From assembly GCA_002245135.1 (NCBI GenBank), contig NGBS01000871.1, forward strand, positions 186,001-250,000: a stretch of DNA of 64,000 nucleotides, read 5' to 3'. Positions within the stretch are counted from its first letter, which is position 1. Each line of letters starts with the position of its first letter. Shown in pieces: positions 30,796-64,000 of this stretch. The translations under genes and the position numbers were made by a program. Source of the DNA: Proteromonas lacertae. Lineage: Eukaryota. The notes beneath the pieces are model-generated. The model saw only the letters and a list, made by a program, of their open reading frames with translations, did not search any database and had not been told where the DNA came from.

Positions 30796-32089
30796 CTAAA
30801 CATAAAAAGTTGAGTGTTTTGGCACTAATAGTATTAATTTGTTGTTATTTCTCTTTATTGATAGACTATGATAACTTCCTCTTCCAATACCACCACCATT
30901 ATTCAAACTGTCAAACATTTTCATTTTCCTTAACTTCCTTTTGTAATCTCTAATATCTTCATAATATATTTTATAAACTTCAACATTATCACTCTTTTTT
31001 TCTAATATACTGGATAAGTCTTCAATATTTATTTCTTTACTTTCTTTTACAACTTCTTTTATTACCATATCATAATTATTCTTAAGTAATGGTTTATAAT
31101 TAATCTCACTCCATTTTCACACTTTTATCATTCAATTTAATATTTAATAAATATTTAGTATAAAATGAATTTGGTGAATTAGCTCTACTTCCAAAGCTTG
31201 TTCCTTTTGAACCAAATGTATAACTTCTACTAACTTCAGGATATATACATACTCTATTCTTACGAATTTTATTATCTCTTAATACCAATCATCCCAATGA
31301 TGCTTTTGGCCATTTATTTCTTATTTCATCCCAAAAGTCTTTTCTCATTAACCATCCTAAACCAGGGAAAAAATCAGTTCTATATAATGCTTCTATTATT
31401 ATTATTATATTAATATATTATATATATTATATACTTGGATTTTCTACATTCTGTGGAAAACCATTATCATTCCAAGCACTAAGACACATTATTCTATTAA
31501 AAAAATATTACATAATTATATTATACGATTTATCTTCACTCATTATATCAGATAAACCATAAAAGAATTCAAGAAAATCATCAGCAAATTCTAAATCATC
31601 TTCTATTACTATTACTTGTTTATAATTCAATTCATCAAATATCTGTTTTAATGCCCAACCATAATGAATTGCTAGTCTTTTATATCCATCTCTGGCTTTT
31701 GCTACTTCATGATTTATATGAATTGTTTTTATTTTCTCTTTATTTTCTTTTATAAAATCTTTTATTACTTTACTTACTTCTTTATCATTTCCATCTTGAC
31801 TAATGACTAAATCTGGCTTTGATGGAGGATTTGGCAAATTGCATAGTTTCAAAACAGATTTTAATGTTCTTTCTAAATACTTATCTCTGTTATAACAAAT
31901 CAACAACATAGCTGTCTTTAGTTTTGAATAATGACTGATTTTCAACTCATTAAACCCATCTATAAGCCAGCTGTTTACATTATTGCCTTTGTATTTTGAC
32001 ATTTTTATTAAATGTGATTTATTTTTACAGAATTTCGATAATGCAATATACACTACACAAAAAGTTAATAAAAGCAAAGTAAACAACAT
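30796..32089 (-). pseudogene. MGAT1: GnT-I (GT13) copy 2, inverted duplicate with four single-base insertions
   Basis: Near-identical to 6435-7680, including introns and 3' flank. Extra bases near 31115, 31280, 31286 and 31299 break the frame. N-terminal TM/stem has diverged. Confidence 0.75.
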
Positions 32090-32652
32090 CTCATTATAAA
32101 TTATAAAAAAAAGAGTAAAAATTGAACTTGACTTTTATCAAGCTCTTTTCATTTTTATTTTGATATTATGTGTTTATTGGCTTATATCCTGTATGAATGG
32201 AAGTAGTGTGATATCAGATTAAATATACGCAACACTGTTGTATATAATAACTCAGTTGCTATAAGTTTTTTTAACTACAAACGTCTAATTCCGGTTTATT
32301 ATTATTCCGCATTGAAACCATCCACATGCCTTAGTCATTTTATATACACTTCATATTGTTATTATAATAACAGTACAAATACTGTACATTTCGATAATGC
32401 AATTATACTTACTATAAAAAAGTGATAAGAATGAAATTAAAATAATGAATGTTTTAATTCTTTTAAATCACCTTCATCATATTTATATATAAGACTGGAC
32501 GTTATTTAATCTGATATAAAGAGTATTAATGGAAAATAAGAAATTGAATAGAGTTAATAGCTTATGTGAATTTAAGAAATTAATTAACAATAATCCCAAC
32601 CTTATCATGTCACAATAAATAATTAACTAAAAAAAAACACATATATAATTTA

Positions 32653-39496: not shown

Positions 39497-42400
39497 ATGG
39501 TATATTTATACATTGTTAATTTTAAATGTATTAGCAAGGGACAGCTAATGATGAGACTAACAGAGATTCTTTAAATAAGAAAGCAGGATCTGGAACAAAT
39601 ACTCATAATAGTGTAAATCCTGTTATAATTCCTCAATCTCGTCCATTGACTGCTAATGCGAATGATCCTAAACGAAAAAGAGAGTCGAGAAGAATGACTA
39701 ATGTATTGGATAAAGTATGCATAGACTAATATATCTAATTCATCTAGCTTGGCTCAGGATGTCTAATAGCAGAAAGATTTAAAATTGTTGAAAAAATAGG
39801 AAATGGTTCATTTGGAGAGAGTATATTTATTTTCTAATTATCTATTAAATAGTCGTAAAAGCAATAGATACAACAAACAATAACGAAGTAGCAATCAAAT
39901 TTGAAAATGCAGCAAATAACCATCCACAATTACATATGGAGATGAAAATATATGATGAATTAAAAGGTAATGTCGGTGTACCAGTAGTATATTACACTGG
40001 AGTACAATACAATTACAATATATTAGTAATGGAATTATTAGGAAAAAATTTAGATTCAATATTTGAAGAACGTAAGAAAAAATTTAACTTAAAAACAGTT
40101 TTACTATTATTCGATCAAATGTTAGATAGAATAGAACTGCTACATGAGCATGGTTTCGTCTACAGAGATATCAAACCAGAGAACTTTATGTTTGGAAATA
40201 ATGATAAAAAGGACATACTATACTTAATAGATTTTGGATTATCCAAGCGATATAGAAGCCAATTAACTAGACAACATATCCCATTCAGAGAAGAATCAAC
40301 ATTAACAGGAACAGCAAGATATTGTAGTATAAATGCACATTCAGGTGAACAATCAAGAAGAGATGATTTAGAAGCAATTGGTTATTTATTAGTATATTTT
40401 ATGAAGGGATGTTTACCATGGCAAGGTTTACCAAGAAACCATCAAATACCACAAATGAAATTAATAGAACAAAAGAAAAGATCAATTCAATTAGAAGATT
40501 TGTGTAGAGATTTACCTGATCCATTTAGACAGTATATTGAATATTGTAGAAACTTGGACTTTAAGAGTAAACCTGATTATAGATATTTGAAGAAATTATT
40601 CCACAAATTGGCTGATTCTCAGAATATTGTATATGATAATATATATGATTGGACACCTACTGCTGAAGTTCAAACTAAGACTCAAGTTTATAAATCAAAA
40701 GCAACTACTAAAGATAATAAACCAAAAACAGCTACAGATACTTGTATATATATATTTTTTAATATTTATTTATGAATAGTGTTGGAAGAAATAGATGAAT
40801 ATCGTGATAAATGTCCTTTGTGCTTATGGAGAACATCAGAAGATGGTGAAAGTAATAATGAACATTATTTTGCATTTCAGGAAGGTATTATTGGTAGTGA
40901 TATTATTCATTGTGAAATATATATTGATAATATTGACACACATCATGCAAGATTGTCATGGGATCAAGCTTGTGGTGGTTATTGTATATGTGATTGTAGT
41001 AAACCTGAATATGGAACTTACTTATTATTATCTGCAGAAAGAAGATGTAGAAAGTATATATATTATTATAATATTTCACTTTTTTTTCTTGTTATTATCA
41101 TTACTTTTCCTCCTTTTCATTATTCTTTTTTATTTTATTCTTATCATAGAACTTTTGAATTAAGAAGAGGTGATAAATTCTACATCAGTGAAGCCAGGAT
41201 TGAAGTAGAAATATTACACATTGAATACCATGCAATCTGTGGAGATGAGAATAATAGAAATACATACAAACCATCCAATCCATCACTCAATAAAGTAGAT
41301 TCAGAGAAATCGGAATTTAGATATAACAGTCTCAATAACAACACAACCAATGATAGTCCCAATAATAATAATAACAATAATAACAATAATAACAATAATA
41401 ATAACAATTTTGATTTACCTAAGCCAAAGAAGAAAAAAGGCCATATTCAATTCAATACAATTACTTATAATGATAATGGAGAAACAGAGAAACTATGTGA
41501 TTCATTTGAAGGTGATGATGCTATTAAATATCAAATAAAGGCAAGTATTTCTGTGAAAATACCTATATATAATGATGATGAAGAAAATGAAGAGATTATT
41601 CAATCATCATCTATGTATTTGAACCAAGCTACACAATTTGAAACAAAGTATATTTTATTTTTTATATTATTTTTATTATTAGAAATTATGAATTAACACA
41701 TGACACTACATTTGGCAGTCTAAAATCAAACGATGTAATTCTTCCAGAAATATGCAGTGGAGTTCATTGCAAAGTTTCAATACAAAATGACAAAATCATA
41801 TTAGAAGATTTAAGTGTAGGAGATCCAACAGGAACAAGGATATTAGTATCAAGACCAGTGGAATTATTTGAAAGAGATATTATAATATTAGGAGACTTAG
41901 AATTAGGTGTAATGCCAATTTCAGATTGTCCAATTTATAGTGCACAATGGATTTCTTGTGCTGTAAGAATTATTCCACTGAGAAAGTCAAAGAGAACTCC
42001 ATTATTGAGTAAAGAAGAAGCAATGTCACAGACTAAAGTATTTCCTATACCAATGGAAGGAGAGATTTTGATTGGAAGAGGAACAGATTGTCAGATTATA
42101 TGTGATGATGTATATATATAATAATTATTATTATTATTATCTATATTTACTATAGTATAAAGTAGCAGAGAAACATGCTTGCATGTATTATGAACCAATA
42201 GAACAGAAATATTATATTGAAAGTTTGGTTATGAGTAGAGCTCAAATTACACAGTTATTATTAGGAAGATCTTCCTCAGCATCTAAAGCGCCTTATAAAT
42301 TGAAAGAATGTATATAAATATATTTTTATATATTTATATTATTATATAGCTGATATATTTTGTGTCGGTTCATCACAAATCCAAATAATCGAAATGAAAG

Positions 42401-43874
42401 TAGAATCAATAGAAGAAATAGAAGAAAGAGAAAGAATAGCTTTTGAAAGAGTTCAATCTTTATGGAAAGATGTTTCATTACTTTCACTATTACCAAAAGA
42501 AGTATTTACAAAAGTAGCTGATGCATTTAAACCAATCAGATTCACCAAAGGTTCAACTATTATACAACAAGGTGAAGAATCAGATACATTTTATATCATC
42601 AAGCAAGGAAATGCTGATGTGTTTTTCTACAGAAGAGGCAATAAAATCAGGTTAAAGACATGTGGTCCTAATAGTTACATTGGAGAATTAGATTTGATTA
42701 ATAATTGCAATTATACTGCCACAGTTATTGCTACTTCTGATGTGGTTGATTGTTTGTCATTAGATCAAGCCACTTTTGTCAATTTTGTTGGTCCTTATAT
42801 TGGTGCAATAGGTGAAGAAGCTAGGAAAAGAGATGTTCAAACAATAATCAATGTCTTGGAGAAATTTCCATTTTTTAATTTATTACCAACAGATGTTCAT
42901 GTTGCACTATCCAATCATTTGAAGAATAAATCATTCCATGATGGAGAAGTGATAATAAAAGAAGGAGATACTGAAAATATTGTATTTTATATCATTCTAA
43001 ATGGAGAAGTGACAATCACAAAAAATGAAGATCTATCCTCTGTTATTACAATATTGAAAAATGGAGATTATTTTGGCGAGCTTGCTTGTCTATCCAAAGG
43101 TCCAAGATCTGCTAATGTAATCGCACATGGTTTAGTAGAAACTTTATATTTAGATTTACCTCATTTTGAAGAAATATTATCCAGTTATTTCATTAAATCA
43201 ACCAGTGCTAGAAGTATTAGTGAAGCTTCATCTGGATTAGGAATTCCAAAGACTGATAGGTTTAAATCAAGACATTTGAACGAAAGCAAACCTTTAGCAC
43301 CTGTATCACCACAAAGTGCACCAAGGACTAGAAAACCAGGTGCTTCTAATAGAGCATTACAGTTGTATATTATTATATTATTATTATTTAATTAATTAGA
43401 ATTGGTGATCCTGAATTGAATAGTTTAACTGAAGAAGAATTAGATTTAGGTGAAGATGATGATACAATATTATATGATAGAACAACAGCAGCTCAAAAAC
43501 CACATTATATTGTATTAAAAGTACTGTCTGGACCATTGAGAAGGGAGTTATATATAATAGAAAGTGAATTAATTACAATTGGAAGAGGTGTTTGTACTTT
43601 GTCAATTAATGATTTAAGTTTAAGCCCAATTCATTGTACAATTGAATATAGAGAAGGAGGTTATTGGTTGTCTGATGCTAATAGTGAATCTGGTACATAT
43701 TTACAGTTGGAAGTTGGATTAGCATTTCCTGTTCAAGTGGGTGATGTTTTTAGGATTGGTAATACTGAGATTAATATATTAGGTAAGACAAAGACTCAGT
43801 CTACACCTACGGATAAGCCTGGAGTGACTACACAAACAGCTGATGAGAATGAACATTGTTGTGTAATATCTTAA
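39497..43874 (+). CDS. Casein kinase 1 fused to three FHA, two cyclic-nucleotide-binding and a fourth FHA domain, ending in CCVIS (CaaX)
   Basis: IGNGSFGE, VAIKFE, LVMELLG, RDIKPENF, IDFGLSK, LTGTARYCSINAH, EQSRRDDLE, LPWQGL. In-frame splice 40744-40779 into the FHA region. cNMP motifs GELDL and GELACL..PRSANV. Confidence 0.85.
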
Positions 43875-44813: not shown

Positions 44814-45760
44814 AATGAGAATAATAATAAAAGGCTTGAATTTCGATTTGATATATTTTCACAAATAAACTTAAAATATGGAATCTAGTGAAATAGAATT
44901 TGAAATCCGAGAAATAGGAAAAGGTAGGCATAGTGTTGTAATGTTAGTTGAAAGGGGTGGTGTTAAAATGGCAAGAAAAGAAATAGATGTGTCAAAACTT
45001 CCTCCTGATGAAGTTAAATCGATAGATGAGGAAATAAAATTATTAAGTGTATTGAGAGATAGAAGTGTGCTAATCTACAAAGAATATAGACATGATAATA
45101 TGAACAACAAATATTACATATACACCGAATATCTTGAAAATGGAGATCTATTTCATTTGATCCAAAAGCAAGTAGCTAAAAGAGAATATTTTGATGAAAA
45201 GGTATAATTATTGTATTATTTGATAATAATAGACTATAAGAGTATATGTTGAAGATATAGCAAATGCATTAAAGTATATTCATAGTAAAGGAATAATTCA
45301 CAGAGATTTAAAACCTGCAAACATCTTTATAGGAAATCATAACAAATTAATAATTGGAGATTTTGGAATAGCAGTAAAAAGTGGTGATAAAGAAGTAAAA
45401 TTAATCGGAACAGCAGGATATATTGCTCCAGAGTTGTGGATTAGTAATCCTCCTAGCTATACAGCATCAACTGATATATTTTCCTTTGGTTGTATTTTAT
45501 ATGAGATATATACATTTCAAATGGCTTATAATGGTGAATCAAATACAAAAATTAGAGATTTAATATTAAATCCAAATTATCAAATACAATTTAATAGAAA
45601 TCCACAAATCTTTAATGTAGAATATCTAATAACAAGAATGTTAGAAAGAAATCCAATGAATCGTATAAGTTTAGATGAAATATTTACTACAATTGAACGA
45701 TGGAAAAATGGAATAAAAATATCAATGAATAGTTCATTTGATAATATAGAAAGTTTAGGT
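44814..45760. repeat. Inverted-repeat arm K1 (kinase + promoter), pairs with 53243-54184
   Basis: Near-identity by eye including the intron and the upstream AATGAGAATAATAATAAAAGGCTTGAATTTCGATTTGA; first ~25 codons diverged. Confidence 0.9.
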
Positions 45761-46201
45761 GAAAGAATAGTTAATTCACCTATAAAACATCAACCTATAC
45801 AACAACAAAAACTTCCACAGCAACCTCCTTTACCAGTATTTCCAGTTCTACCAATTCAACAACCAGTTCAGTCCAATAAATTCATTAATATAAGTAAGAA
45901 TCAACCAAATCAGTTAAATCAAGTAATGATGACTATTTATCCACCTCCACAATCACATTCTCCACCTCTTCCACCACCATCACAACAACAACAACCATTA
46001 TCACCTTCAATTTCACCTTCAATTTCACCAACATCACTCTCAGCTCAATTATCTCCTACACAACAAAAACCAATCAAAGTAAATAAATATATAAATATAA
46101 GCAATAATTTGAATAATAAACAAATGCAATATCCTTTATCTCAACCACCAATATCACAACTAAATTTCATTCAATTAAATAATGTTTATCCATTATCTTA
46201 A
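44878..46201 (+). CDS. NEK-like Ser/Thr kinase with short Pro/Gln-rich tail (kinase-only paralog)
   Basis: IGKGRHS, MARKEI, EEIKLL, EYLENGDL, HRDLKPANI, GDFG, GTAGYIAPE, TDIFSFGCILYE; one intron. Confidence 0.85.
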
Positions 46202-46287
46202 AACTTAATTATTTATAATTTTTGTGTTGTTGGGATTGAAATTTCTCATAATAACAATATTTAGGTTTGATTATGATTTGATCAAAT

Positions 46288-47417
46288 ATGAATAAAAATT
46301 CTTTTTATCTCCCTGTTGAAGGATTTTTTTCTTCTCATTCACTTGATAATATCAAAAAATCACCAGTGTCTTTAATATTTGATAGTAATTCCATCTATAA
46401 AATAGAAAATGACAGTAAAAGTTGTAGTTACAAGCAAATATGTATAAAAGTAGACACATATACTTATTAGACAAATGTGAGTCGAAAATGATGTATGTAA
46501 TAGATTTTATAAATGATTCTGATTGTGAAATATTAGTACAATCGATTAATAACAAGAATAACATGGAATTATCTTTGTTTAAATATAAAGAGGAAGGGGA
46601 AGAATTACAGTTATTATCTTCCATTGTTATTGATTTTGAACCAACAGAAACTATACTTGATTCTTACCTATTCCATGATATTTCAAGTCCAATATTGGTA
46701 ATAACATCAATAGATTGTAGATGTCACTATTATACTTTCAAAAATCATAAAATAGAAAAATACACACCAAAACATTCATTTTATAATATAATGAATTTAA
46801 CATCTTCATACATAGTAAAAATGCAAATATATAAAGAGAATAGCAACAATAAAATATGGTTAATGCTTGGATATGAAGATGGATCTTTTATTGTTATTGA
46901 TACAGATGAGTATTATTGAGTTTTATATTGTATAATAGAAATATTCAATATAATTGCATTTTTCCTGGTACAGTTTCTTCAATATTAACATTTCCTAATA
47001 CATTAACCTGTAATTATAATGATCATTCTTTTATATTGATTATTGGTACAATATATGGTGAAATATATGAATGTAAATTGAATAATGAATTGGTATATGA
47101 TTTTGTAATTTTATGTGATAGAAAATAATAGAATATGATTGTTTATACAGTAAGAAGAGTTGTATTCTTTCATTATGCTATTACAAGGTATATAATGCAT
47201 ATGTATATTTTAATAGAATAGAATATATATTGGAACTTTTTCAGAAAAACTGATCATTTTGGATTATAACAATGAAGAAAGTGATAATGAAAAGAAAGTG
47301 AAGAAAATTGATTCATTTGTGTATTCATATCCAATTATGAGTTTAAAAACAGTAGAGAATGAAATGTGTATTTATATTGCTACATTAAGAGAATTGTACA
47401 TCTTAAAACTAAAATAA
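46288..47417 (+). CDS. Beta-propeller protein, possibly kaptin (KPTN)-like
   Basis: Beta-strand-rich spliced ORF: DFEP..ILVITSIDCRCHYY, LMLGYEDG, GTVSSI, YIGTFSEKLII, YPIMSL..IATLRELYIL. Family call is from pattern only. Confidence 0.4.
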
Positions 47418-47431
47418 ATAATGAATTTTAT

Positions 47432-47896
47432 TTAATCTGTTTTTATTTTTGGATAGCATACATATCCTTCATAATACTGAGAGTTAATTTCTATACTTTT
47501 CTTTGTATTTGTATTATCTGATGTTTTATCATCATATAACTCGCACTCTGAATGATTAATCACTTTATAATCATTATGGTTAGGTTTATACGACTAAATA
47601 ATGTAAAATTAATAATATACTTCAATTATTTTGCAATAACTAATAAACTTGTTTAATTTCTTTTCTAATTCATTATTTGAAGATTTTCTAATATGAGATA
47701 ATTCATACAAGTGGTTTATCTAGAAAATGATAATTTCTACATATATTTACTTCTAATTTAGTTACTGCATTTTTATTCGTTTCAATAGATTTTCCTTGGA
47801 TATCATTAATAGATAAAACAGGCTTCTTAACAATCTAATCGATAATATTGCATATTATACTTGTTTTAATTCAAAATGCGAAATATACCGTCTCAT
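47432..47896 (-). CDS. Glu-tRNA(Gln) amidotransferase subunit C (GatC)-like, 3 introns
   Basis: Spliced: VTKLEINHLYELSHI..LEKKLNKFISYCKIIE..LYDD..GYVCYPK, a GatC-like pattern. Confidence 0.5.
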
Positions 47897-48019
47897 TATT
47901 GATTTTAATGATATATTTAAGGTAATTAGCTTGATTGTTTTTTCAAAAAACATTAAAATAAAAATGAAGCTTGAATAAAAGCTTGTAAATCTATTTTGAT
48001 TTCTTTTAAAAAACAAAAA

Positions 48020-51000
48020 GAAATACAAATAATTAAATGGTTTTAAAGATTGGATTTAACTTTTCCAGAAATGTTTTTAAATCTGGTTTTATAACAATCT
48101 TTGATGTATTTTTCATTAATTCTTCAATTTTTCTTTTTAAATCTCCAGTAAATTCTTTCATTTTTGGAATTGTATAAAAATCTTTAATACAATCACATAC
48201 TTTCTCTAAAATTATCCAATAATTTTCATTTTCAATGAAATTGATTTTACTATTACATAATATAATTATCAAAATATACAATTCTTTTGTATTTATATTA
48301 TCAACACTAAACCCCTTAATTTCTATTCCAATTGCCTTTAATGATTTTTGAATTGTTTCATTTACTCTTCCTAAACATTCTTTATTATTCTTTATTTCAT
48401 TGATTTCTGAATCTGTGAAGAATGGTTTTGTTGGAATAATATTCTATTCATTATAAAAACTAAATTACATACAATATTCTTAACAATTGAAGAACAAGAA
48501 GAATTAATTCTCAATTTCTTAAATTCAACTCTACCAAAGTAATAATCTTTTATTTGTTGTTTAAAGTAATCTTCTCCTGATAAAGATTTCTTAGCTGGTT
48601 GAAAACTATTAATTAGATTATTCTTCAGTTTTTTCAATTGATTCTTTATTTCATTTTCTGGAAATATACAACATTCTGTTATTAATTCCAATATATGCAG
48701 TGATTGTCCATCTCTAATAATATATTAAATTACAATATTTATATATACAAATCATCTATATTTGGATGATGTAAACCACTAATATCAAAACGAATATTAT
48801 ATTCAGATAAGAACTTGTTTGATAAATCTAAAATTTTGTTAACTTTTTCTTTATCCAGTTTAAATACTATATATTAATAGAAATTAAATCATATATACAT
48901 TCACTATCATCTTTTGTGAATTTTGGACTTTTTTGATCAATTTTGGGAAATATAATATTATAATGTTCTTCTTTAAAATCAATTGTGTGTAAAACTACAT
49001 TTTTCATCTCTATTAAATCACTTATTTTATAATAATTTCTATCTATTTTCAAAGGAGTTATATCATCATAAAACTGAAAAACTATCTAAACGTCAAATAT
49101 TATATTAATTAATACATTAATTTCATTTTTTTCCTTACTAATTGGTGATAATGGAGGTTTTTTCTTATAATTCTTTTGAAATTCTAATACAGAATTTGGA
49201 ATATCTAAAATGTCATCTAACTTTATTAATTGAGAAAAATCTTTTGCTTTAGTCATTATTTCTTTAATTCTTTCTTCATTTCCTTTGTATTTTGATTCAT
49301 CTAATAATTCTATTTTTTTGTTTAAATCATCATATATTAATCCATATTTCTGTACAAATTTATAAAGAAAATTATTGTATCTTTCGATTGTTCTTGATTT
49401 ATTCTTTTTCATTTCTTTAATATCATCTTCTGTTAGTTTTGGATTATTCTGTTTCTTTGTTGGAAATATCCACTAATGTATTATATAATTAGGAAATATA
49501 CTGGAATATATTTTTCTATATTCAATTTGTTAAAATCATATTCACTCATTTTACATATATCTTCAAAATTATATCCATTTACTCTTTTATACCATAAAAT
49601 AAATTCTTTCTATTTCAATAATACTATTGATTATATACAATTTTAACATTAGGTATAACTGGAGAAACACTTCTATTCAGTGGTGGGGGATTATCAGTTG
49701 ATTCACCATTTATAAAACTGATAATTAAATCTGGAATATCAATCAATGAATAAAATTCTACAATTTCAAAATAACTCTTCATTCTTTTCATTATTCCTTC
49801 TATCTCATTTTTATATACTTCTATTTTACTTCTATCTGTTGATATAACTCTTCTGTTTATCTCATCATATTTCAATCCATATTTGGATAAGAATTTGTTT
49901 ATTATAATTTTGTATTTCTTTTCTAATTCACTCTTTTTTCCTTTTATTTGATATACATCTACTACAGTAATTTTACTTTCTTCAGGAAATAAATACTATA
50001 AAATATAAGTGGTAATAAACTTATACAGGAATAAATTTATCTATTGAAAAACTGTTGAAGTTTGATTGAGTCATATTCACTATCTCATCAAATGTTTTTC
50101 CACAAACAGGTGAAGAAAGTAATAAGAATGATTTCTATTAATAAATAAATTGAAAAATACAATAGGATTTGAAGATGGAGGTGGTGGAGGATATATTTCT
50201 CCTTCCTTTTCATTTATAAAACGTAGAACAGCTGTAGGTATTTTCAATAATTCAATCTGATCTATATCATTTAAAGATATTTTTATTCTTCCCATTAATT
50301 GTTTTATTTTTTCTTCATTTCCTTTGTATTTTGATTCAACTATTATTTTAATTATTTTACTCTTTTCATCATATTTCAATCCATATTTGGATATTAATTT
50401 CTTAAGAAAATTGCCGTATGATTTTTCTACTCTTTTAGTAAATTCTTTCATTTTTCTAATATCATCTTCTGTTAGTTTTGGATTATTCTGTTGCTTTGTT
50501 GGAAATATCCACTAATATATTATATAATTAGGAAATATACTGGAATATATTCATCCATATAGAATTCATTAAATTCATATTGATTCATATTATATATATT
50601 TTCAAAACTGTATTGATTTACTTTTCTGTCAAATAGAATGAAATCTTTCTATTTGATTATTAATATTTTAAAAAATACAATTGCTGTAATGTTTAAATTT
50701 CTGTGATTAATTATCTTTTCTATTAAAGAATAGTATAAATCATCTATTCCACATATTACCATTAAACTATTCTTTATTCTATTTAATACTTTCAATGATT
50801 CATCTCTAACTCTCCAATAACTATTTTAATCATATTAATAGAAATATACTCATAATTATCATTAATTCTAAAATCATTTCCATTTTCAACAACATCATAA
50901 CCATATTTTTCTAATATTAAATGAATTATTTCTTTATTGTTATATTTAAATAAATCATCATTTTGAAAGATCTTTCTATCATTCTCTGTAAATGAAGGAT

Positions 51001-52282
51001 TATCTTGATCAACTATTGGTAATAACCACTAAAATATAATAATAATTATTATTTATACATTCAATTCATTCAATGGATACCATTTTCGAAGGTCTTCATG
51101 TTTCATATTGACATAATCTTTAAACCAATAGCCAGTTTCAGATCTAATCTCTCCTCTATAAAATTTTATTACCTATTTCAATAAATTATAATATATAATA
51201 CATCTGATTCTACATGCATTGTTCCTTTAATTCGATCTTGAATTATTTTATTGATCAAATTGATTTTATCATTTTCTTTGAATGTATCTTTTATGCTTTG
51301 TCTTAAATGCTCTAATACTCTCTTTGTTTCTTCTTTTCCTTTCCATATACTATAATTATTTGGATGTTGCTGAAATGAATTATCTTCAAATTCAACTACA
51401 TATCCATTCTTGATTAATACAACTCTCATTAAGTCATAATAGTATATTTTTATCATTTCATTTTCTACAAATTCTTTTCTTTCTTCTTCTGTAAATTTGG
51501 GTGGATGGATTTGATTTAAGTGAGGAAAGAAAAACTATAATCATTATCAATATAAAATATACATATAAATCATCATGATTAAAATAATTTTGAGATGTTT
51601 TTCCATCTAAATTCATATAATAATCCAATTTGTGTTTATTATATTCTAATTCTACACAATAGAACTTTATTATCTATTCATTATTATATAGAATGAAATA
51701 CGTTTGATTTAATTGCTTTATTCTCTTCTTCTTTATGTTGCTTTGATTCTATTCTTCCATTCTTTACTTTTTCTTTATTCTTGTCTTTTGATTTGTTGTT
51801 TTTATCTTGATTATTTCTTTCTTCAATTATTTGACAATCTATTATTAGTATATCAATATTTTTATTATTACTTTCTAGTAATTCGTTCAATCTATCTAAT
51901 AACTTTGAATCATTAAATGTATCTTTCATACTCTTTATCACTATCTTTAATAAATCAATACATTTTGATTTTGACATATTCTCACTCTTTCTATTATTAC
52001 AATATTACAAATATATATATACAAACATATATTTATTAAAGAATCTATCAACAAATTGTAGTTTTCTTCTATTATATCATTTTCTACAAATTCTTTTTTG
52101 ATTTCTTCATTGAATAATGGTGATAATTGGTTTAAATGAGGAAATAAATACTATTTACATTTAAATATATCATTATATACACTACTATATTTCATATATT
52201 CTTCAATACTTAGATTTTGTTGATAATCATAAACATTTTTTCCATTTATATCTTCTTCAAATATATAGAATTGAATTATCTA
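48020..52282. repeat. Inverted-repeat arm R1 (OGFr-like array), pairs with 56352-59490
   Basis: Long stretches identical in reverse complement, including introns (e.g. ORFs 51178/57150, 48033/59232). Confidence 0.9.
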
Positions 52283-54124
52283 TAAACAATTAATGAATAA
52301 ATAACAAATACTTTTGATTTTTCACATTCTACAGTCTTTTCTACATTATTTTCTCTATTATCAACTTCTTTCATTATGTCTTTTTCATTTTTTTCTTTAG
52401 GTTTTACCTTTTCTTCTTTTTTTACTTTCTTTCTTTCATCATCATTCTTCTTTTTTTTATCTACTTCTTCATCTGAAGAAGAAGATGATGATGATAATTT
52501 TCTTTTCTTTTTATGATGATGTTTTCTCTTCTTCTTTTCTTCTTCATCACTACTTTCATCATCATTTTCATCATTATTACATTGAGGAGGTGGTGGAGGT
52601 GGAGGTGGTGGATATTGTTGTGGTGGTTGCAGTGGTAGTGGTGGTTGTAATGCCATTAATGGTTGATTACGATTGTTATTAATCTGCTGAGGAGGAGGTG
52701 GAGGTGGAACAAATTGTATTTGGTTATTATTCATATAAAAAGGATAATTATTTGAATATGGTGGTGGAGGTGGAGGTGGAATATTTGGATTATAATAAGC
52801 AGTTTGCATTATTTGATTTGGTGGTGGAGGTGTTGATAAATTTCCACTAAGATATTGATGATTATTCAGATTGTTTAGAATATTCATAAATTTATTTGTT
52901 TGATTTTGATTAGGTAAACTTGACTTTCTATTACTAATTATACTACTAGGTAATGATCTTCCCAATGGGTTATCTTCTACTACTTGAGGAGGGTTAATAG
53001 CAGGTGAAGGAGTAATGGATCTTTGATGAGCTTGTGAATTTGGTCTAACTGGCTGTTGAAACTGTTGTTGTGGTGGTGGTGGTTGTATTTGTGGAAATGG
53101 TTGTTGTGGTAGAAGTGGTTGTGGTTGTAGTGGTTGTTGTTGCATTTGTAGATAAGGTTGTGGTTGTTGTAGGTTTTGTTGTAATGGTTGTTGTTGCATT
53201 TGTAGATAAGGTTGTGGTTGAGGTCTATTTACAACTGTTACACCTAAATTTTCTATATTATCAAATGAACTATTCATTGATATTTTTATTCCATTTTTCC
53301 ATCGTTCAATTGTAGTAAATATTTCATCTAAACTTATGCGATTCATTGGATTTCTTTCTAACATTCTTGTTATTAGATATTCTACATTAAAGATTTGTGG
53401 ATTTCTATTAAATTGTATTTGATAATTTGGATTTAATATTAAATCTCTAATTTTTGTATTTGATTCACCATTATAAGCCATTTGAAATGTATATATTTCA
53501 TATAAAATACAACCAAAGGAAAATATATCAGTTGATGCTGTATAGCTAGGAGGATTACTAATCCACAACTCTGGAGCAATATATCCTGCTGTTCCGATTA
53601 ATTTTACTTCTTTATCACCACTTTTTACTGCTATTCCAAAATCTCCAATTATTAATTCGTTATGATTTCCTATAAAGATGTTTGCAGGTTTTAAATCTCT
53701 GTGAATTATTCCTTTACTATGAATATACTTTAATGCATTTGCTATATCTTCAACATATACTCTTATAGTCTATTATTATCAAATAATACAATAATTATAC
53801 CTTTTCATCAAAATATTCTTTTGTAGCTGCTCGATTTTGGATTTTATGAAATAGATCTCCATTTTCAAGATATTCGGTGTATATGTAATATTTGTTGTTC
53901 ATATTATCATGTCTATTTTCTTTGTATATCAAAACACTTCTATCTCTCAATACACTTAATAATTTTATTTCTTCATCTATCGATTTAACTTCATCAGGAG
54001 GAAGTTTTGACACATCTATTTCTTTTCTTGCCATTTTAACACCACCCCTATCAATTAATTTCACTACACTATATCCACCTTTTCCAATTGTTTTCATCTC
54101 TATTTCATTAGTGTTATTATTCAT
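48033..54124 (-). CDS. NEK-like kinase + Pro/Gln linker + eight tandem degenerate OGFr_N-like domains (~20 introns, ~1800 aa)
   Basis: Kinase exon 2 splices in phase 0 (intron 52280-52311) into repeated units with pattern [IV]xxFY..G../W[LI]FP..P.[LF]TE.D..F..L.KYG..RI..SL. No stop found along the spliced path. Confidence 0.75.
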
Positions 54125-54190
54125 TATGTAATTTTATGTGCAAAGTTCAAATCGAAATTCAAGCCTTTTATTATTATTCTCATTCTTTCA

Positions 54191-55005
54191 ATGAGTACTT
54201 CTGTGCAAACAACTAAAGTAGATTTTATAAACTTACTACAAAAAATGGAATCCTTTTCAACAGAAGAATTATCGAATATATGTGTCTCTCTGTATATATC
54301 TAAATTGAGGTATATTTTATTGAATTATATTGAATTAGTGAATTGTGGAAATTATTGAATGAAAATAACCAATATTTGAGCAAGCCACTCTCTTTTGAAA
54401 CATTAAGATCTTACGAAAAGAGATATTCAATCTTAATAAGGAATTTACATAACCCAAAATCATCAAAGAATCCAATTATAAATTCAAAATCCAAATCTTC
54501 AGATGTTCCCAACACAAAATCAAAAGAATTAGACTTAAAGAAACAGTTATTTGGTGTATGAATATATATAATTCAATACTATAAGTATTATTCATAGAAT
54601 AAGTATAAAAAAGAACTCCTAATTGATGAAGAGTATTAATAATCACATTATTCTCTATTAGGTTAGAAAATGATATAAATAAGCATGTATCATTTCAAAA
54701 TGACATAAAAAATGAAATATTATCAATGAGTGAACAGTTACAAATCCAAGGAAATGATGTAAATAGTATAATTAAATCAGATATGTCAATTTTAAAGCCT
54801 TCTCAACAATTAATGGAAGAAAGTATAAATATTTATGGAATTATTATATCATATAGATTCATATAATTTATCAAAAACTCAATTAAAGTTGGAAGAAGTG
54901 ACTCATAAAGGAAGATGTATGTGTTGCAATTATGTCTCCACTACTGTGATGATTATGATGATTTTTATGTTTATGGTGATGTTAATGAAAACATTACCAA
55001 AATAA
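54191..55005 (+). CDS. USE1: USE1-like ER Qc-SNARE (4 introns)
   Basis: QNDIKNEILSMSEQLQ..IIKSDMSIL..NLSKTQLKLEE SNARE helix, then Cys-rich CMCC and C-terminal TM ending MKTLPK. Confidence 0.65.
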
Positions 55006-55159
55006 TTAGTTTATTTATTGTTTTCTGTTGTTATGTAAATACTTTAATTAGTTCTAACCATTTTTTGTTATTCTTATTTGTCTAGCCGTTTAAATTATAT
55101 GAATATTTATAATAGGCTCGAATTGCTGTTTGAATTTTACATAGAAATTATTTAATATT

Positions 55160-58100
55160 ATGTTTAATAGCAATAATAATAATCAAGTATATACATCTTA
55201 TGGAACACTACAACAAAATGGTCCTAATACTTCTCCATATCAACCTCGTCAAGTTAATAGATATATTTACAGTGCAAATAGAGTAACACAAAATCAAATT
55301 CCATCTTTGATACCTCATTCATATCCGTATCAGCAATCTCAAACTCAACAGAAACAACAAATTAACATTCAACAACAACAACCACCTATTCAACAACAAC
55401 CACCTATTCAACAACATTCAACAACAACAACTTATTCAACAACAACATCCTATTCAACAACAACAACATCCTATTCAACAACAACAACATCCTATTCAAC
55501 AACAACAACTTATTCAACAACAACAACTTATTCAACAACAACAACATCCTATTCAACAACAACAACATCCTATTCAACAACAACAACTTATTCAACAACA
55601 ACCACCTATTCAACAACATCATTCTATTCAACAACAACAACTTATTCAACAACAACAACATCCTATTCAACAACAACAACATCCTATTCAACAACAACAA
55701 CATCCTATTCAACAACAACAACTTATTCAACAACAACAACTTATTCAACAACAACAACATCCTATTCAACAACAACAACATCCTATTCAACAACAACAAC
55801 ATCCTATTCAACAACAACAACAACTTATTCAACAACAACAACTTATTCAACAACAACAACTTATTCAACAACAACAACATCCTATTCAACAACAACAACA
55901 TCCTATTCAACAACAACAACATCCTATTCAACAACAACTTATTCAACAACAACATCCTATTCAATTACTACCTACAATTGAAGAAGAAGAATCATTACCA
56001 GCAATAGAAGATCAGTCTATTTTGGAAGATAGAGATCATATTCAAGAACAAATAATGCAGATTATAAAAGAACTACCAATACACCAGTTACATGATATAT
56101 TTCAACTTTTAGAAATTGTACAGAATCAAAAACAACAAATACTTCCTCTTCTTCATCACCTCACGATGATGCTAATGAAAGTGATGATGAAATTAGTAAT
56201 AAAGAAAAAGAAGACAAAATAGAAGAAAATTCAGATATGGAAAGGAAAGTCGATGAAATAGATGATGATGAAAAGAAAAAAAGGAAAAAAGAAGATGAGA
56301 TGAATAAAGTAGAAGAATCTATTGTATTTGCTTTTTTTGTCATTATTGTTTTATAGATAATTCAATTCTATATATTTGAAGAAGATATAAATGGAAAGAA
56401 TGTTTATGATTATCAACAAAATCTAAGTATTGAAGAATATATGAAATATAGTAGTGTATATAATGATATATTTAAATATAAATAGTATTTATTTCCTCAT
56501 TTAAACCAATTATCACCATTATTCAATGAAGAAATCAAAAAAGAATTTGTAGAAAATGATATAATAGAAGAAAACTACAATTTGTTGATAGATTCTTTAA
56601 TAAATATATGTTTGTATATATATATATATATAATTATAATAGAAAGAGTGAGAATATGTCAAAATCAAAATGTATTGATTTATTAAAGATAGTGATAAAG
56701 AGTATGAAAGATACATTTAATGATTCAAAGTTATTAGATAGATTGAACGAATTACTAGAAAGTAAAATTATTGATATAATAATAATAGATTGCCATCAAG
56801 ATAAAAACAACAAATCAAAAGAAATAAATAAATAAAAAGTAAAGAATGGAAGAATAGAATCAAAGCAACATAAAGAAGAAGAGAATAAAGCAATTAAATC
56901 AAACGTATTTCATTCTATATAATAATGAATAGATAATAAAGTTCTATTGTGTAGAATTAGAATATAATAAACACAAATTGGATTATTATATGAATTTAGA
57001 TGGAAAAACATCTCAAAATTATTTTAATCATGATGATTTATATGTATATTTTATATTGATAATGATTCTAGTTTTTCTTTCCTCACTTAAATCAAATCCA
57101 TCCACCCAAATTTACAGAAGATGAAAGAAAAGAATTTGTAGAAAATGAAATGATAAAAATATACTATTATGACTTAATGAGAGTTGTATTAATCAAGAAT
57201 GGATATGTAGTTGAATTTGAAGATAATACGTTTCAGCAACATCCTAATAATTATAGTAAATGGAAAGGAAAAGAAGAAACAAAGAGAGTATTACAGCATT
57301 TAAGACAAAGCATAAAAGATACATTCAAAGAAAATGATAAAATCAATTTGATAAATAAAATAATTCAAGATCGAATTAAAGGAACAATGCATGTAGAATC
57401 AGATGTATTATATATTATAATTTATAGAAATAGGTAATAAAATTCTACAGAGGAGAAATAAAATGTAAATACATTGAATATAATATAAATTCTTATGTCA
57501 ATATGAAACATGTAGAACTTAGAGGATGGCATCCATTGAATGAAATTAATGTATAAAGAATTATTATTATTACATTTTAGTGGTTATTACCAATAGTTGA
57601 TCAAGATAATCCTTCATTTACAGAAGATGATAGAATGATCTTTCAAAATGATGATTTATTTAAATATAACAATAAAGATATAATTTATTTAATATTAGAA
57701 AAATATGGTTATGATGTTGTTGAAAATGGAAATAATTTTAGAATTAATGATAATTATGAGTATATTTCTATTAATATGATTAAAATAGTTATTGGAGAAG
57801 TAGAGATGAATCATTGACAGTATTTGAAAGAATAAAGAATAGTTTAATGGTAATATGTGGAATAGATGATTTATACTATTCTTTAATAGAAAAGATAATT
57901 AATCACAGAAATTTAAACATTACAGCAATTGTATTTTTTAAAATATTAATAATCAAATAGAAAGATTTCATTCTATTTGACAGAAAAGTAAATCAATACA
58001 GTTTTGAAAATATATATAATATGAATCAATATGAATTTAATGAATTCTATATGGATGAATATATTCCAGTATATTTCCTAATTATATAATATATTAGTGG

Positions 58101-59477
58101 ATATTTCCAACAAAGCAACAGAATAATCCAAAACTAACAGAAGATGATATTAGAAAAATGAAAGAATTTACTAAAAGAGTAGAAAAATCATACGGCAATT
58201 TTCTTAAGAAATTAATATCCAAATATGGATTGAAATATGATGAAAAGAGTAAAATAATTAAAATAATAGTTGAATCAAAATACAAAGGAAATGATTAAAT
58301 GAAATATTTGAAATACCATTTTCTGTATTAGAATTTCAAAAGAATTATAAGAAAAAACCTCCATCATCACCAATTAGTAAGGAAAAAAATGAAATTAATG
58401 TATTAATTAATATAATATTTGATGTTTAGATAGTTTTTCAGTTTTACGATAATGTAACTCCTTTGAAAATAGATAGAAATTATTATAAAATAAGTGATTT
58501 AATAGAGATGAAAAATGAAGTTTTTTACAAACTCAATTTTAAAGTAGAACATTATAATATCATATTTCCCAAAATTGATCAAAAAAGTCCAAAATTTACC
58601 AAAGATGATAGTGAATGTATATATGATTTAATTTCTATTAAAATATAGTATTTAAACTGGATAAAGAAAAAGTTAACAGGGTGTTAGATTTATCAAACAA
58701 GTTCTTATCTGAATATGATATTCATTTTGATGCTTGTGGAAATTTAAATTATCCAGAGTTATATAAGATGTATATCAATTTTAGTTTATTATGTATTTAG
58801 AGATAATCATGCTTTACCATTAATAGCAATGATTACAGAATGTTGTACATTTCCACAAAATGAAATGAAAGAAGAATTGAGAGAAATGAAAGATAATCTT
58901 GATGATGAATTTAAATCAGTTAAACATACAATACAAGATGAATATTACTTTAAACAGCAAATAAAGGATTATTACTTTGGTAGAATAGAATTTAAGAAAT
59001 TGAGAATTAGTTTTTCATGCGATTCAATTATTGAGAATATTGTATGTAATTTTCTTGTATAATGAATAGAATATTATTCCAACAAAACCATTCTTCACAG
59101 ATTCAGAAATCAATGAAATAAAGAATAATAAAGAATGTTTAGGAAGAGTAAATGAAACAATTCAAAAATCATTAAAAGCTATTGGAATAGAAATTAAGGG
59201 GTTTAGTGTTGATAATATAAATACAAAAGAATTGTATATTTTGATAATTATATTATGTAATAGTAAAATCAATTTCATTGAAAAACAACAAAATTGGATA
59301 ATTTTAGAGAAAGTATGTGATTGCATTAAAGATTTTTATACAATTCCAAAAATGAAAGAATTTACTGGAAGTTTAAAAAGAAAAATTGAAGAATTAAAAA
59401 GTAAAAATGAAATTGTTATAAAACCAGATTTAAAAACATTTCTGGAAAAGTTAAATCCAATCTTTAAAACCATTTAA
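55160..59477 (+). pseudogene. Kinase-less paralog: poly-Gln repeat N-terminus + OGFr-like array, disrupted
   Basis: Frameshifts near 55415 and 56130. In-frame TAA at 56833 where the paralog has GAA. Out-of-frame ~1.1-kb deletion at ~58295 fusing repeat 4 to repeat 6. Confidence 0.7.
55370..55962 (+). repeat. Coding minisatellite (CAA)3-5 + CATCCTATT/CTTATT, encoding [13 protein letters not shown] units
   Basis: About 30 units of 15-21 bp visible directly. Confidence 0.9.
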
Positions 59478-59553
59478 TTATTTGTATTTTCATTTTTAAT
59501 AAACAATAACTCAGATACAAACATAAAACAAAAACAAATTAAAATAAATCATC

Positions 59554-62500
59554 TCAAATTTCATCATTTTCAACTTTGCCCCATTCACCTCTCTTATATA
59601 AATTTTCATATCTTTTATCTTCTCTCAATCTCTTCTTCATTATTTCACTCTTATTCTAATTATATTATATAATATATATGTATATATACATAATTTCTCA
59701 ACGATTTTAAACAGTGAATATAACTTGCTTGACAAGTTTTATCTCCACAAGCAATTGGATAAGAAGGATCTTTACAAGGACCTTTAAATTCAGATTTTAT
59801 ACAACTTCCGATATGAGGGAAATTATATGGTTTATTATCACCATCTTCACCACATTTATTAAAATCAGATATCGTTCTTTTATAATTTGCTAACACTAAT
59901 AATACATAATATGCTTTTTCTACATAAATATCAAAAGTTTTATCTCGAGAATCATAGTCAATATAATCTAATTTTGAACCTAAAAATACTATATTCCAAG
60001 GAGCCATATCTTCATAAAGAGGTAATTTTAAAAAATTATCCCAAGCTTTCTCTCTTTGACATTCGATTATATTCATTCGCAATATCGCTATTAATGTTAT
60101 TCCATAGATTGTTGTATATGGAATTGTAGCATTATCTTGACGAATTAATTTTACACTCTATTTCAATTATAATATATATATATATACTATTATATCATCT
60201 TTATTATAATGATTTCCTAAATATAAACTAAGGATTCCTTCATTATTTTCTTTACTCTTTTTCATTAATTCCATTGCTGTTTTGTTCTGTTCTATATATA
60301 ATGTGTAAGTTCGCTCATGACCATCTAATTGATACATGAAATGATGATGAACTTCTCTCTTCACTTTTAATATATCTATTCTTACTATATCACTTGAAAG
60401 TGAAGTAGCTCTCTATAATATAAATGTTTATAATATATATATATACATACATATGAATTATCTCTATCAAGCTTTGCTGAATTTATTATCATATTCAATT
60501 GACTGTATTTATAATATTGTCTTGGATGTAATGAGATTTTATATCTATTCACTACTCTTTGAACATTATAATATGATGGATATTTATTCCAAAATATATC
60601 AGTAGAAGGATCATCAAAAAATGTCATAAACAATAATGAGATTATTTGCGAAGATGGAATTCGAATAAATGAAGACAGAGAAAGAGTGAAAAACTTCTGA
60701 TAAAAATCATATACATTAGACAGTGTATTTATATTCATAAAATCAACCAATGACATTTCATTATACTGAAAACGAACAAATTCTGGTGAATTATAAAGAT
60801 CATTAATCAACGAAATGTCACTGTTTCTTACACATATTTGAATATTTGTTATATTTTTCTTATTTATTTCATTTTCTGCTATTTTACTATCTTCGGAAGT
60901 ATCAGTTAAACTGATTATAGTTGCTTCTGGATACTTTTGTGATAATAACCTTGAAAAATCACCTGTTTTTGAATTATAATTGATAAATGAGAATTTTCCA
61001 CTGTTTGTATCTTTCATTGTCATTTCTTTGATGATTGTATTGAAATATTTCTCAACATCTTCAACTTCATTTGATTGGAAATACAGATCTTGTTTATTAT
61101 CCTCAGAATTTGTATCTGAATATACTAAATAAGAATGAGTTACATTGTGAGAATAATATATATTCCAAGGTGGAAAATATTCTACACTGGAAAGAATTGA
61201 GTCAAAATCAAAGTGTAAATACATACTGATTAGATTCTTTTTCATTTCTTTGATTACTCCCATTTTTAATAACAAATAGAGTGAAATATCGGATGTTATA
61301 CTTGATATTGGTTTGTATGTAAATTCTTGGACTTCTATTCTATATACTGATCCAGATGGAACTAATTAATGATAAATAAATGAAATATATATCTATACAT
61401 TTAGATGGTAATATATCAACTATGACTTTATTCAATCCAACTGATGATAATGCATATCTTAATATATCTTCAATTGGATTATTAGAGCTATATCTTTCTC
61501 TTAATATTTTCATCGTTTCATTCATTTCATATTGAGGAAAATTGAATATTGAAATACTTTGGAATAGTACTTCAATAGAGGGGAAATAAATGAATGTTAT
61601 ATAACCACAGTTAAGTATTGAACCTAATAATAATTCAAATGATCTATTTCAAAAAATAATAATAAAACAATTGTATATATATATATATATATATATACTC
61701 CAAATTTCTACTACTTTCCATCATAGCGTTAATTATATCCATTGATATTATTTGATAATAAAACGGCTCTTTATTTAATGAAATTGTTTCAAACAAGTGA
61801 GAATTAATATCACTTTGACATAATAAATTGTTATTTATATCCATTATATTCACTAATTGATAGTGTGATTCAATATTCTCATAATTCAGTTTTAATGATA
61901 TGATATTTGATAGTTTGTATTTCTTTGATATTTTTATTGATAATAAACTTAAATCACTTCCAATACACAGTAAATTCCATCTTTTATTTAAATCTAATTG
62001 TGAAGGTAATATTGACCACCAATAGTTGTAGATTTGTTCTTCATTATTGATCATTATTCTTTGTAATGAATCTAATTACAGTAAAAATGATATGTTTTAT
62101 ATTATATACGAATATAACTGTTATACTGAACAACATTTCGTTTTGGTGGATAATGTAATCTTATATGATTTTCAATTATGTTTAACTTTATTGAGTTTAT
62201 CCAGTTGTTGTATGATTTGTCATTATTATCATATAATAATCTTCTATTCTCCATTTCAGGCTATTTAATATAATAATATATATATATATATATTATACTT
62301 TATCTGCTTTATTATCATTTTTATCATTTTCATTTACACCTAAATCAAATTTCTTTAAGAAATTGGCAAAGTCTTTAATCTCGTCATTATTCTTGTCTTT
62401 ATCTTTTTCTTCATTTATATTTTGCAGATTATCTTTGTTTAATTGTTCTTTTTTATCATCTCTATCACCAATATCTTTATCTTTCTTCTTTTCATCGCCT

Positions 62501-64000
62501 TTTTCATCCTTTTTATTCTCATCTTTAATATTATCATTTCTATTATCTTCTTTCTTTTCTTTATTGTTATTGTCATCATTCTCCTTTTTGCCATTCTTTA
62601 CATTATCCTGTTTTACTTCACATTTATCTTTATCATCACAATCAATATCTTTATTTTCCTGTTTATTATTGTCTTTCTTATTATTCTCAACATTTTCATT
62701 ATCTCTTTCATTCTTTTCATCTTTCTTTTCATTATCATTAAACCACTTATTATCATCATTTCCATTTTCTTTCTTTTCTTCATCTTTATTCTCCTTTTTT
62801 ACTTCACATTTATCTTTATCATCACAATCATTATCTTTCTTATTAACATTCTTATCTTCTTCTTCTCTCTTTTCAACTTCATTCTTTTCATTTCCTTTAT
62901 TCTCCTTATCATTTTCATTATTAAATTTCCATTTATTATCAAAATTGTTGTTATGTTTCCACTTATTATCATCATTTTCATTATCCTTTTTCTCATTCAC
63001 ATCTTTCTTTTCATTTTCATTATTGTCATTATTCTTCCACTTATTATTATAATTATAATTATATTTCCACTTATAATCATCCATATCATCTTTCTTTTCA
63101 TTCTCATTCTCTTTACCATCTTTTTTCTCATTTTCATTATTGTCTTTATTCTTCCATTTATTATCATTATTATTGTCTTCATCATTTTCTTCTTTCTTTT
63201 TCTTCTTATATTCCTCTATTAATGATGTATTATTGTTAATATTATTTAATTGACATGATGTTATATTGCCATTAATTGTAGTGTTTGTACAATTGGCTGT
63301 TGTATTAATAAGAAGAATTGGATCAATTATATAATCATATTCATCTATATAATAATAGAGAGATAATAATAATAATATATATATACTCTTTCTTAATATT
63401 AGATTATCCATCAAAACATCAATTGTTAAATTCTGTGTAATATTAGGTAATAATATGAATTTATTAAATAACAGATTCTTTTCATATTTTGATATATTAC
63501 AATATAATAATGACTGTAATTTTATTGGATTATATGATATCTCTTCTTCTTCTTCTTCTTCTATTTCTATTTCTTCTTTATTTTCTTTATTTTTATCATT
63601 TTCTTCTTCAAGTTGTCTATTATAATAGCTATACCAACTCTTTTCCTTCTTTTCTTCTTCTTTCTTTTCATTTTCATTATCCTTCTTCTTTTCATTATTA
63701 TTATCATCATCTTTCTTATTTTCTTTGTCTTTATTCATCTTAGTTGGTTTAATTACATGTTTTTTAATTGATAGAAAATACTCTGAAGTTACAGTTCTAG
63801 AATAATAACTATCACTATTCTCTTTATATTCCACTGATATTGTATCAACTTTATATTCTATACCTTTCTTCTTATTATTACCTCTTTTAGCGATAGATTT
63901 AGCGAATTCTATTTCATTTTCCCAATATTTATAATAATTATTGTGTGATGGAAATTTAACTGGAATGTATAGATGATTTACTAATTTTAATAAACTATAT
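59554..64000 (-). CDS. Partial large multi-exon protein with repeated methyltransferase-like + atypical kinase-like modules and a Cys-rich tail (5' end outside window)
   Basis: Motif-I-like LLCIGSDLSLLSIKISKKY and FINYNSKTGDFSRLLSQKYP; kinase-like YEDMAPWNI..DYIDYD and degenerate YFPPWNIYY; D/K/N/E-rich insert at 62293-63230. 3' end uncertain. Confidence 0.55.

What the first reader, a model, noticed from the sequence alone, without database searches (positions are those of the whole stretch)
44814..59490. Interlocking inverted repeats give kinase-only, kinase+array and array-only genes, with in-frame module swapping possible by inversion
Seen: order is K(+) 44.8-45.8 kb, R(-) 48.0-52.3, K(-) 53.2-54.2, USE1, R(+) 56.35-59.5. 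The three genes are K-short tail, K-linker-R and polyQ-R. Inference: a crossover between the K arms would invert ~45.8-53.2 kb and exchange tails between the two kinase starts. A crossover between the R arms would invert ~52.3-56.35 kb and move the kinase onto the other array. Both products stay in frame because the breakpoints lie in homologous coding sequence. The geometry resembles a shufflon or a silent-donor/expressed-copy system. No recombinase is visible.
Basis: partly seen in the sequence, partly recalled or inferred. Interest (0 to 1): 0.78.

Follow-up and report, generated by a model that had tools for sequence, protein, structure and literature searches.

The report
Inverted half-copies of a kinase-array gene
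In an AT-rich microbial eukaryote, a kinase gene carrying about eight repeats of a predicted OGFr-like domain is flanked by two inverted partial copies of itself, one with stop codons, which likely exchange sequence with it by ordinary recombination rather than forming a programmed switch.

Summary
The geometry is real: K1(+), R1(-), K2(-), USE1, R2(+); the arms are about 89-96% identical. The three genes are not equivalent. K2-linker-R1 models as an intact 1,840-aa, 19-intron gene; K1 is a 430-aa kinase; polyQ-R2 has a frameshift, an in-frame TAA (56833) and a 1,094-bp out-of-register deletion ending in a stop. About 63% of the R arm would give a truncated kinase on crossover. A K-arm crossover stays in frame but swaps little beyond promoter and N-lobe. 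Identity is patchy (identical tracts up to 466 bp beside 74-81% patches), as expected from ectopic gene conversion. No shared crossover site and no recombinase were found. Unnamed relatives have kinase+linker+R, so the fusion is likely ancestral. The R unit is probably a divergent OGFr_N-like fold. Best reading: paralogs split and shuffled by inversion and homogenised by homologous recombination, like the yeast flip/flop region, not a shufflon. No reads were examined. The scan's index held nothing on this DNA.

The parts
44878..46201 (+). K1: kinase-only gene, 430 aa, one 31-nt intron (45202-45232), P/Q/S-rich tail resembling the first part of the K2 linker; catalytic motifs (HRD, DFG, APE) intact
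44814..45781 (+). K arm 1 (64 bp upstream plus kinase domain); 45183-45752 has only 3 differences from K2, shared intron identical
46440..46919 (+). exon of an unrelated gene (X) inside the K-arm invertible segment; only weak BBS2_Mid/BBS1 scores (E 0.0085, 0.045), not assigned
48033..54124 (-). K2-linker-R1: intact model, 1,840 aa, 19 introns; kinase aa ~10-270, low-complexity linker ~283-594, about eight ~150-aa OGFr_N-like units from aa 595
48021..52323 (-). R arm 1 (array exons and introns)
53221..54184 (-). K arm 2
54245..55005 (+). USE1-like SNARE gene, divergent from K2 across ~120 bp; lies inside the R-arm invertible segment (ends approximate)
55160..59477 (+). polyQ-linker-R2: kinase-less copy with a QQQQ(H/P/L)-PI array (55367-55954), frame change near 55415, in-frame TAA 56833-56835, out-of-register deletion at 58294/58295 with TAA 58296-58298
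56312..59489 (+). R arm 2; all 14 introns shared with R1 keep GT..AG
57829..58294 (+). longest identical tract (466 bp, two identical introns) with R1 50780-50315; ends exactly at the deletion junction

Best explanation
The locus holds one intact-looking kinase-linker-array gene and two inverted partial paralogs, one of them broken, which likely arose by duplication and inversion and are likely homogenised in patches by ordinary ectopic gene conversion, with inversion as a rare unprogrammed by-product. Shown: the arms, the mosaic identity, the lesions in R2, and kinase+linker+R in relatives. Inferred history: two head-to-tail kinase-linker-R genes; one non-homologous inversion breaking in a linker gives a kinase-only and an array-only half at once; one crossover in the K or R arms then gives today's order. 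Inferred function: the protein is probably a cytosolic Ser/Thr kinase whose OGFr_N-like repeats act as a binding or targeting array. The repeats lack the H..IQW and HN..R motifs seen in the OGFr_N protein P0149, so catalysis is less likely.
For: Differences are clustered beyond a uniform null in all three arm blocks: longest identical run 161 bp (p 0.003), 466 bp (p 0.0002) and 119 bp (p 0.0002); the GnT-I inverted pair in the same window is not clustered (p 0.24). Of 15 shared introns, 5 are identical, 5 differ by one base and 5 by 3-12. 3 of the 4 closest kinase hits (50-54% identity) continue into a linker and an R unit (pairwise E 1e-19 and 2e-8 for the two tested); P0151 does too. K1's tail matches K2 linker aa 302-423 (p 0.012; aa 398-423 p 0.005) and the polyQ gene's acidic part matches aa 503-569 (p 0.04), so the halves are complementary. 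No shared site, no recombinase. Precedent: gene conversion between inverted paralogs with occasional crossover drives the yeast flip/flop inversion (PMC9731477, abstract and Discussion read).
Against: No reads, second haplotype or syntenic relative were seen, so neither conversion nor inversion is directly shown. Uneven selection or read-polishing of duplicates could also make identical tracts. The linker matches are low-complexity and marginal; two of the three polyQ-gene segments tested did not match (p 0.12, 0.80). R2's lesions could be partly assembly error: the GnT-I duplicate shows four 1-bp indels against seven substitutions, and R2 has only 1 point stop where 6-12 are expected had it diverged while dead, so R2 was coding until recently or still is. 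Diverged patches have pN/pS near 1.0, which relaxed or diversifying selection could explain.
Confidence: 0.62

Rival explanations
1. Static partial duplicates: two independent duplications copied the kinase and the array, and the arms no longer exchange sequence; patchy identity reflects selection, multi-step copying or polishing.
For: Another inverted single-gene duplicate (GnT-I, 6241-7682 / 30725-32156, 99% in its core) lies in the same window, so inverted duplicates are not special here. Signs of consensus error in duplicated DNA.
Against: Identical introns sit next to introns with 7-12 differences, which protein-level selection does not explain; the two partial genes are roughly complementary halves.
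Confidence: 0.22
2. Silent-donor or recombinational diversification system: R2 is a reservoir whose diverged patches are copied into, or flipped onto, the expressed kinase-array gene, and selection keeps the arrangement because it varies the array's binding surface.
For: Mosaic arms. Diverged patches have pN/pS 1.02-1.06 with no stops and only frame-keeping indels. R2 keeps all 14 shared splice sites. Broken donors are usual in antigenic-variation systems (recalled).
Against: Only one donor copy is visible; no direction of transfer is shown; the protein starts with the kinase domain and has no evident secretion or membrane segment (by eye); the best recombination tract leads into the frameshift.
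Confidence: 0.08
3. True shufflon: a site-specific recombinase inverts the segments at defined sites at high frequency.
For: Overlapping invertible segments inside coding sequence resemble the layout.
Against: 0 shared words of 12 bp or more across all four arms, and 10- and 11-mers below control means; no recombinase, integrase or transposase family in 212 of 212 ORFs of 62 aa or more; the repeats are 1-4 kb homology arms, not short sites.
Confidence: 0.02
4. Assembly artefact: the duplication or the R2 junction was made by misassembly.
For: A 466-bp perfect tract ends exactly at the R2 deletion junction; indel errors are likely elsewhere in the window.
Against: The arms carry 168 coding substitutions over 908 codons with frame-keeping indels and distinct flanks; a repeat collapse would join in register, whereas this junction is 55 bp off register. 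This argues against the duplication being false; the junction alone could still be.
Confidence: 0.06

Closest known systems
Saccharomyces chromosome XIV flip/flop (FF) region (PMC9731477; abstract and Discussion read)
   Same: [quoted passage not shown]
   Different: FF has one pair of near-identical 4-kb repeats with whole genes and shown polymorphism. Here two arm pairs overlap, each is half of one modular gene, identity is only 89-96% and patchy, one copy is broken, and no inversion has been observed.
Giardia Nek kinases with TALM-ankyrin arrays and the kinase-less Protein 21.1 family (PMC3218828; passages read)
   Same: N-terminal kinase plus a variable C-terminal repeat array, with kinase-only, kinase+array and array-only relatives and gain or loss of repeats.
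   Different: The repeat here is a ~150-aa OGFr_N-like unit, not ankyrin; family size in this genome is unknown; Nek membership of the kinase was not tested by phylogeny.
OGFr_N domain proteins (Pfam PF04664; P0149, Marseillevirus A0A481YX38)
   Same: FY...W/F-x-F-P...LT...K..Y..ML..YG pattern and predicted helical fold.
   Different: Below Pfam detection, shorter, lacks the H..IQW and HN..R motifs of P0149, occurs as a tandem array of about eight behind a kinase.
Bacterial shufflon (IncI pilV/Rci type; recalled, not read)
   Same: Overlapping invertible segments that could exchange C-terminal modules on a constant N-terminus.
   Different: No short repeated crossover sites, no recombinase, eukaryotic intron-rich gene, most products truncated or nearly unchanged.

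Membership tests
Shufflon / site-specific DNA inversion system | Short conserved crossover sites shared by all invertible segments | tested here: not met
   0 shared 12-, 13-, 14- or 16-mers across K1, K2, R1, R2 with 100-bp flanks
Shufflon / site-specific DNA inversion system | Adjacent site-specific recombinase | tested here: inconclusive
   None among 212 of 212 ORFs of 62 aa or more at E 1e-4; small exons or a gene outside the window would be missed
Shufflon / site-specific DNA inversion system | Each orientation gives an intact alternative protein | tested here: not met
   1,980 of 3,163 bp of R arm lie upstream of a stop in R2; holds only if the stops are not assembly errors
Shufflon / site-specific DNA inversion system | Alternative orientations coexist in a clone | not tested
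   No reads examined
NAHR flip/flop region (yeast FF type) | Inverted paralogous repeats of 1 kb or more flanking unrelated genes | tested here: met
NAHR flip/flop region (yeast FF type) | Homogenisation of the arms by gene conversion | tested here: inconclusive
   Clustered differences and identical introns, but no outgroup or isolates, and polishing is not excluded
NAHR flip/flop region (yeast FF type) | Both orientations found among strains | not tested
   No second genome or related locus obtained
OGFr_N (PF04664) | Pfam gathering score | tested here: not met
   No OGFr_N hit at E 1 for 6 array exons or 13 relatives carrying the unit
OGFr_N (PF04664) | Remote sequence and fold homology | tested here: met
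   Profile of 6 exons hits OGFr_N protein P0149 at E 1.6e-4 in 1.84 billion; hhalign prob 67.7%, E 4.9e-5; Foldseek rank 1 is a viral OGFr for both models: E 0.0034, prob 1.00, TMq 0.50 for a relative's unit; E 0.41, prob 0.96, TMq 0.69, rmsd 3.0 for the window's exon. Each line is weak alone.
Protein kinase (PF00069) | Kinase domain with catalytic motifs | tested here: met
   Pkinase E 2e-32 and 6e-33 for the C-lobe exons; Lys, HRD, DFG and APE present in both models
Nek family | Phylogenetic placement with NIMA-related kinases | not tested
   Two weaker hits (37% and 45%) are labelled NIMA-related, others polo-like; no tree built

The most novel reading that the evidence does not exclude
A eukaryotic recombinational module switch: overlapping inverted half-genes flip or convert often enough to change which promoter and N-lobe drives the kinase and which OGFr-like array it carries, with R2 as a donor of fast-evolving patches. 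It would be a recombinase-free, shufflon-like diversifier of an intracellular kinase-sensor in a protist.
Probability: 0.08. Interest if true: 0.75.

Novelty: new variant of a known kind. Interest (0 to 1): 0.38.

Why it matters
As a rearrangement it is a known process in an unusual layout: one split of a modular gene yields kinase-only and array-only genes, a concrete route to the three architectures seen in families such as Giardia Nek/21.1. The less ordinary result is the protein: a kinase carrying a tandem array of probable OGFr_N-like domains, found only in unnamed sequence records and in none of four paper searches. It offers a test case for what this poorly understood fold binds. If reads showed frequent flipping, the locus would be a rare eukaryotic coding-module switch.

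Tried and rejected
No whole genome is held for the window, so family size and other donors are unknown. No reads were examined, which leaves orientation, splicing, expression and the reality of the R2 lesions open. Word-index protein search with exon 49116-49472, longer proteins: 0 of 713 candidates; with alignment A2: 2 of 7,996, both already known. Related loci in metagenome contigs: 0 of 150 stretches confirmed. PDB by sequence: best E 0.09. PDB by Foldseek: none at E 0.001. VIA-align wide: best Z 6.9, 0 at Z 8 or more, uninformative for a helical domain. The ESM Atlas gave no answer. Of the 14 profile hits, I set aside P0144 (Hydra repeat protein) and P0150 as probably spurious, by eye. 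Introns that would remove the R2 stops: none; one 25-nt candidate (55327-55351) could bypass the polyQ frameshift and a 26-nt GTT-starting candidate (56087-56112) is needed to join polyQ to the acidic linker, both unverified. One search printed a deletion of 1,093 bp from a right edge one base off; its own alignment puts the edge at 49220, giving 1,094 bp and a 55-bp excess. Organism not determined: 21-34% GC and ~30-nt introns suggest a Blastocystis-like protist (recalled), but the TGTTTGTT motif occurs 10 times in 64 kb against about 1 per 2.8-3.1 kb in three subtypes (PMC5608401, passages), without a shuffle control. PMC12129017 (term search of the main text only) has no mention of OGFr, inversion, kinase or gene conversion; its supplements were not read. 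Paper searches were seen as listings only.
Full report
Observation. Self-comparison of the window shows the two arm pairs at the stated places: K1(+) 44814-45781 against K2(-) 54184-53221 at 93.6%, and R2(+) 56312-59489 against R1(-) 52323-48021 in two blocks (alignments). The DNA is eukaryotic, 21-34% GC, with short GTA..AG introns. A splice-aware model of my own gives K2-linker-R1 as an unbroken 1,840-aa frame with 19 introns of 26-35 nt, and K1 as 430 aa with the same first intron. Both kinases pass Pfam Pkinase and keep their catalytic motifs. USE1 lies between K2 and the polyQ gene. No RNA supports these models.

R2 is not an equal partner. It has a frame change in the polyQ stretch near 55415, an in-frame TAA at 56833-56835 opposite E743 of R1, and lacks 1,094 bp of R1, 55 bp out of repeat register, which puts a stop at 58296-58298. 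No short GT..AG intron removes either stop. The damage is recent or partly artefactual: 908 aligned codons carry 168 substitutions but one point stop, against 6.3 or 12.3 expected if half or all had fallen on a dead copy, and all 14 shared array introns keep GT..AG. The window's other inverted duplicate, a GnT-I gene, has four 1-bp indels against seven substitutions, which suggests consensus errors in duplicated DNA. The polyQ frameshift could be such an error; the 55-bp offset is less easily so.

What inversion would do. A K-arm crossover stays in frame because intron and frame are shared. But the kinases differ at 18 of 277 aligned codons from the glycine-rich loop on, only one of them between aa 103 and 281, so the main effect would be to swap promoter and N-lobe between tails. 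For the R arms, 521 bp lie before the first stop, 1,459 bp between the stops and 1,177 bp after, out of 3,163. Only the last 37% would leave the kinase on a full-length hybrid array. The longest identical tract, 466 bp, ends at the frameshift junction.

Evidence on mechanism. Differences are clustered in all three arm blocks (longest identical runs p 0.003, 0.0002, 0.0002 against shuffles) but not in the GnT-I pair (p 0.24). Of 15 shared introns, 5 are identical, 5 differ by one base and 5 by 3-12. This is the pattern expected of patchy ectopic gene conversion, though uneven selection and polishing are not excluded. pN/pS is 0.42 in the kinase, 0.72 and 0.76 in the array blocks, and 1.02-1.06 in the two diverged patches. 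No word of 12 bp or more is shared by all four arms. None of 212 of 212 ORFs of 62 aa or more matches a recombinase, integrase or transposase family; small exons could hide one.

History (inferred). Of the four closest kinase hits (50-54% identity), three continue into a linker and an R unit; the fourth ends soon after the kinase. P0151 has the same build. These look like gene calls cut at introns, so their unit number is unknown, and all looked up are unnamed records. Kinase-linker-R is therefore likely ancestral. K1's tail resembles linker aa 302-423 and the polyQ gene's acidic part resembles aa 503-569, with marginal p values, while two other polyQ-gene segments did not match. The simplest path is two head-to-tail genes, one inversion breaking in a linker, then one homologous crossover in the K or R arms. 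Two independent partial duplications need as many steps and cannot be excluded without synteny.

The array. A profile finds about eight units between aa 595 and 1803 (the profile contains window exons from five of them, so those scores are circular). No unit passes Pfam. Three weak lines point to OGFr_N: the exon profile hits a two-domain OGFr_N protein at E 1.6e-4 among 1.84 billion; hhalign gives 67.7% and E 4.9e-5; and confident models of a relative's unit (pLDDT 90.8) and of a window exon (86.1) both rank a viral OGFr protein first. No solved structure matched. The H..IQW and HN..R motifs of P0149 are absent, so a binding role is more likely than catalysis (inference).

Comparison and verdict. 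It works most like the Saccharomyces flip/flop region, where gene conversion between inverted paralogs occasionally crosses over and inverts the middle (PMC9731477, abstract and Discussion). The three architectures parallel Giardia Nek/Protein 21.1 (PMC3218828, passages), a lead taken from scan note e1-7272945. It fails two defining shufflon features and is not filed as one. Four searches did not turn up a kinase with an OGFr array in print (listings only). The scan's index had nothing for this genome or for P0004. Verdict: real arrangement, ordinary recombination the likeliest mechanism (0.62), an apparently undescribed domain architecture, interest 0.38; an active module switch remains possible at about 0.08 and is directly testable with long reads.

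Noticed in passing
window 6241-7682 (+) and 30725-32156 (-): Second inverted duplicate: a GnT-I (N-acetylglucosaminyltransferase I) gene, 99% identical over its core; the minus copy has four extra single bases, three within about 20 bp, probably consensus errors or a young pseudogene.
   Followed up: partly
window 24626-27205: Phosphoglycerate kinase (-) and GAPDH (+) genes lie head to head about 330 bp apart, consecutive glycolytic enzymes on a likely shared promoter.
   Followed up: no
window 41642-43871 (+): FHA, two cNMP-binding domains and a second FHA in adjacent ORFs, possibly one intron-split gene with an unusual FHA-cNMP-cNMP-FHA build, just downstream of a casein-kinase-1-like gene (label recalled).
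   Followed up: no
window 15390-15703 and 17359-17675: Direct repeat of about 320 bp at 71% identity on the minus-strand gene(s) next to TPR exons.
   Followed up: no
window 13422-13924 (+): 51-bp tandem array, about 7-10 copies at 87% identity, within a 574-codon ORF with no Pfam match.
   Followed up: no
window 59660-63999 (-): Large gene with no Pfam match and a long Asn/Asp/Lys/Glu-rich repeat region (117- and 186-bp periods).
   Followed up: no
P0140, P0145, P0147 (unnamed records): Relatives with R units and no kinase in the called frame, P0140 with two units separated by a Q/P-rich spacer, so array-only forms may exist beyond this locus.
   Followed up: no
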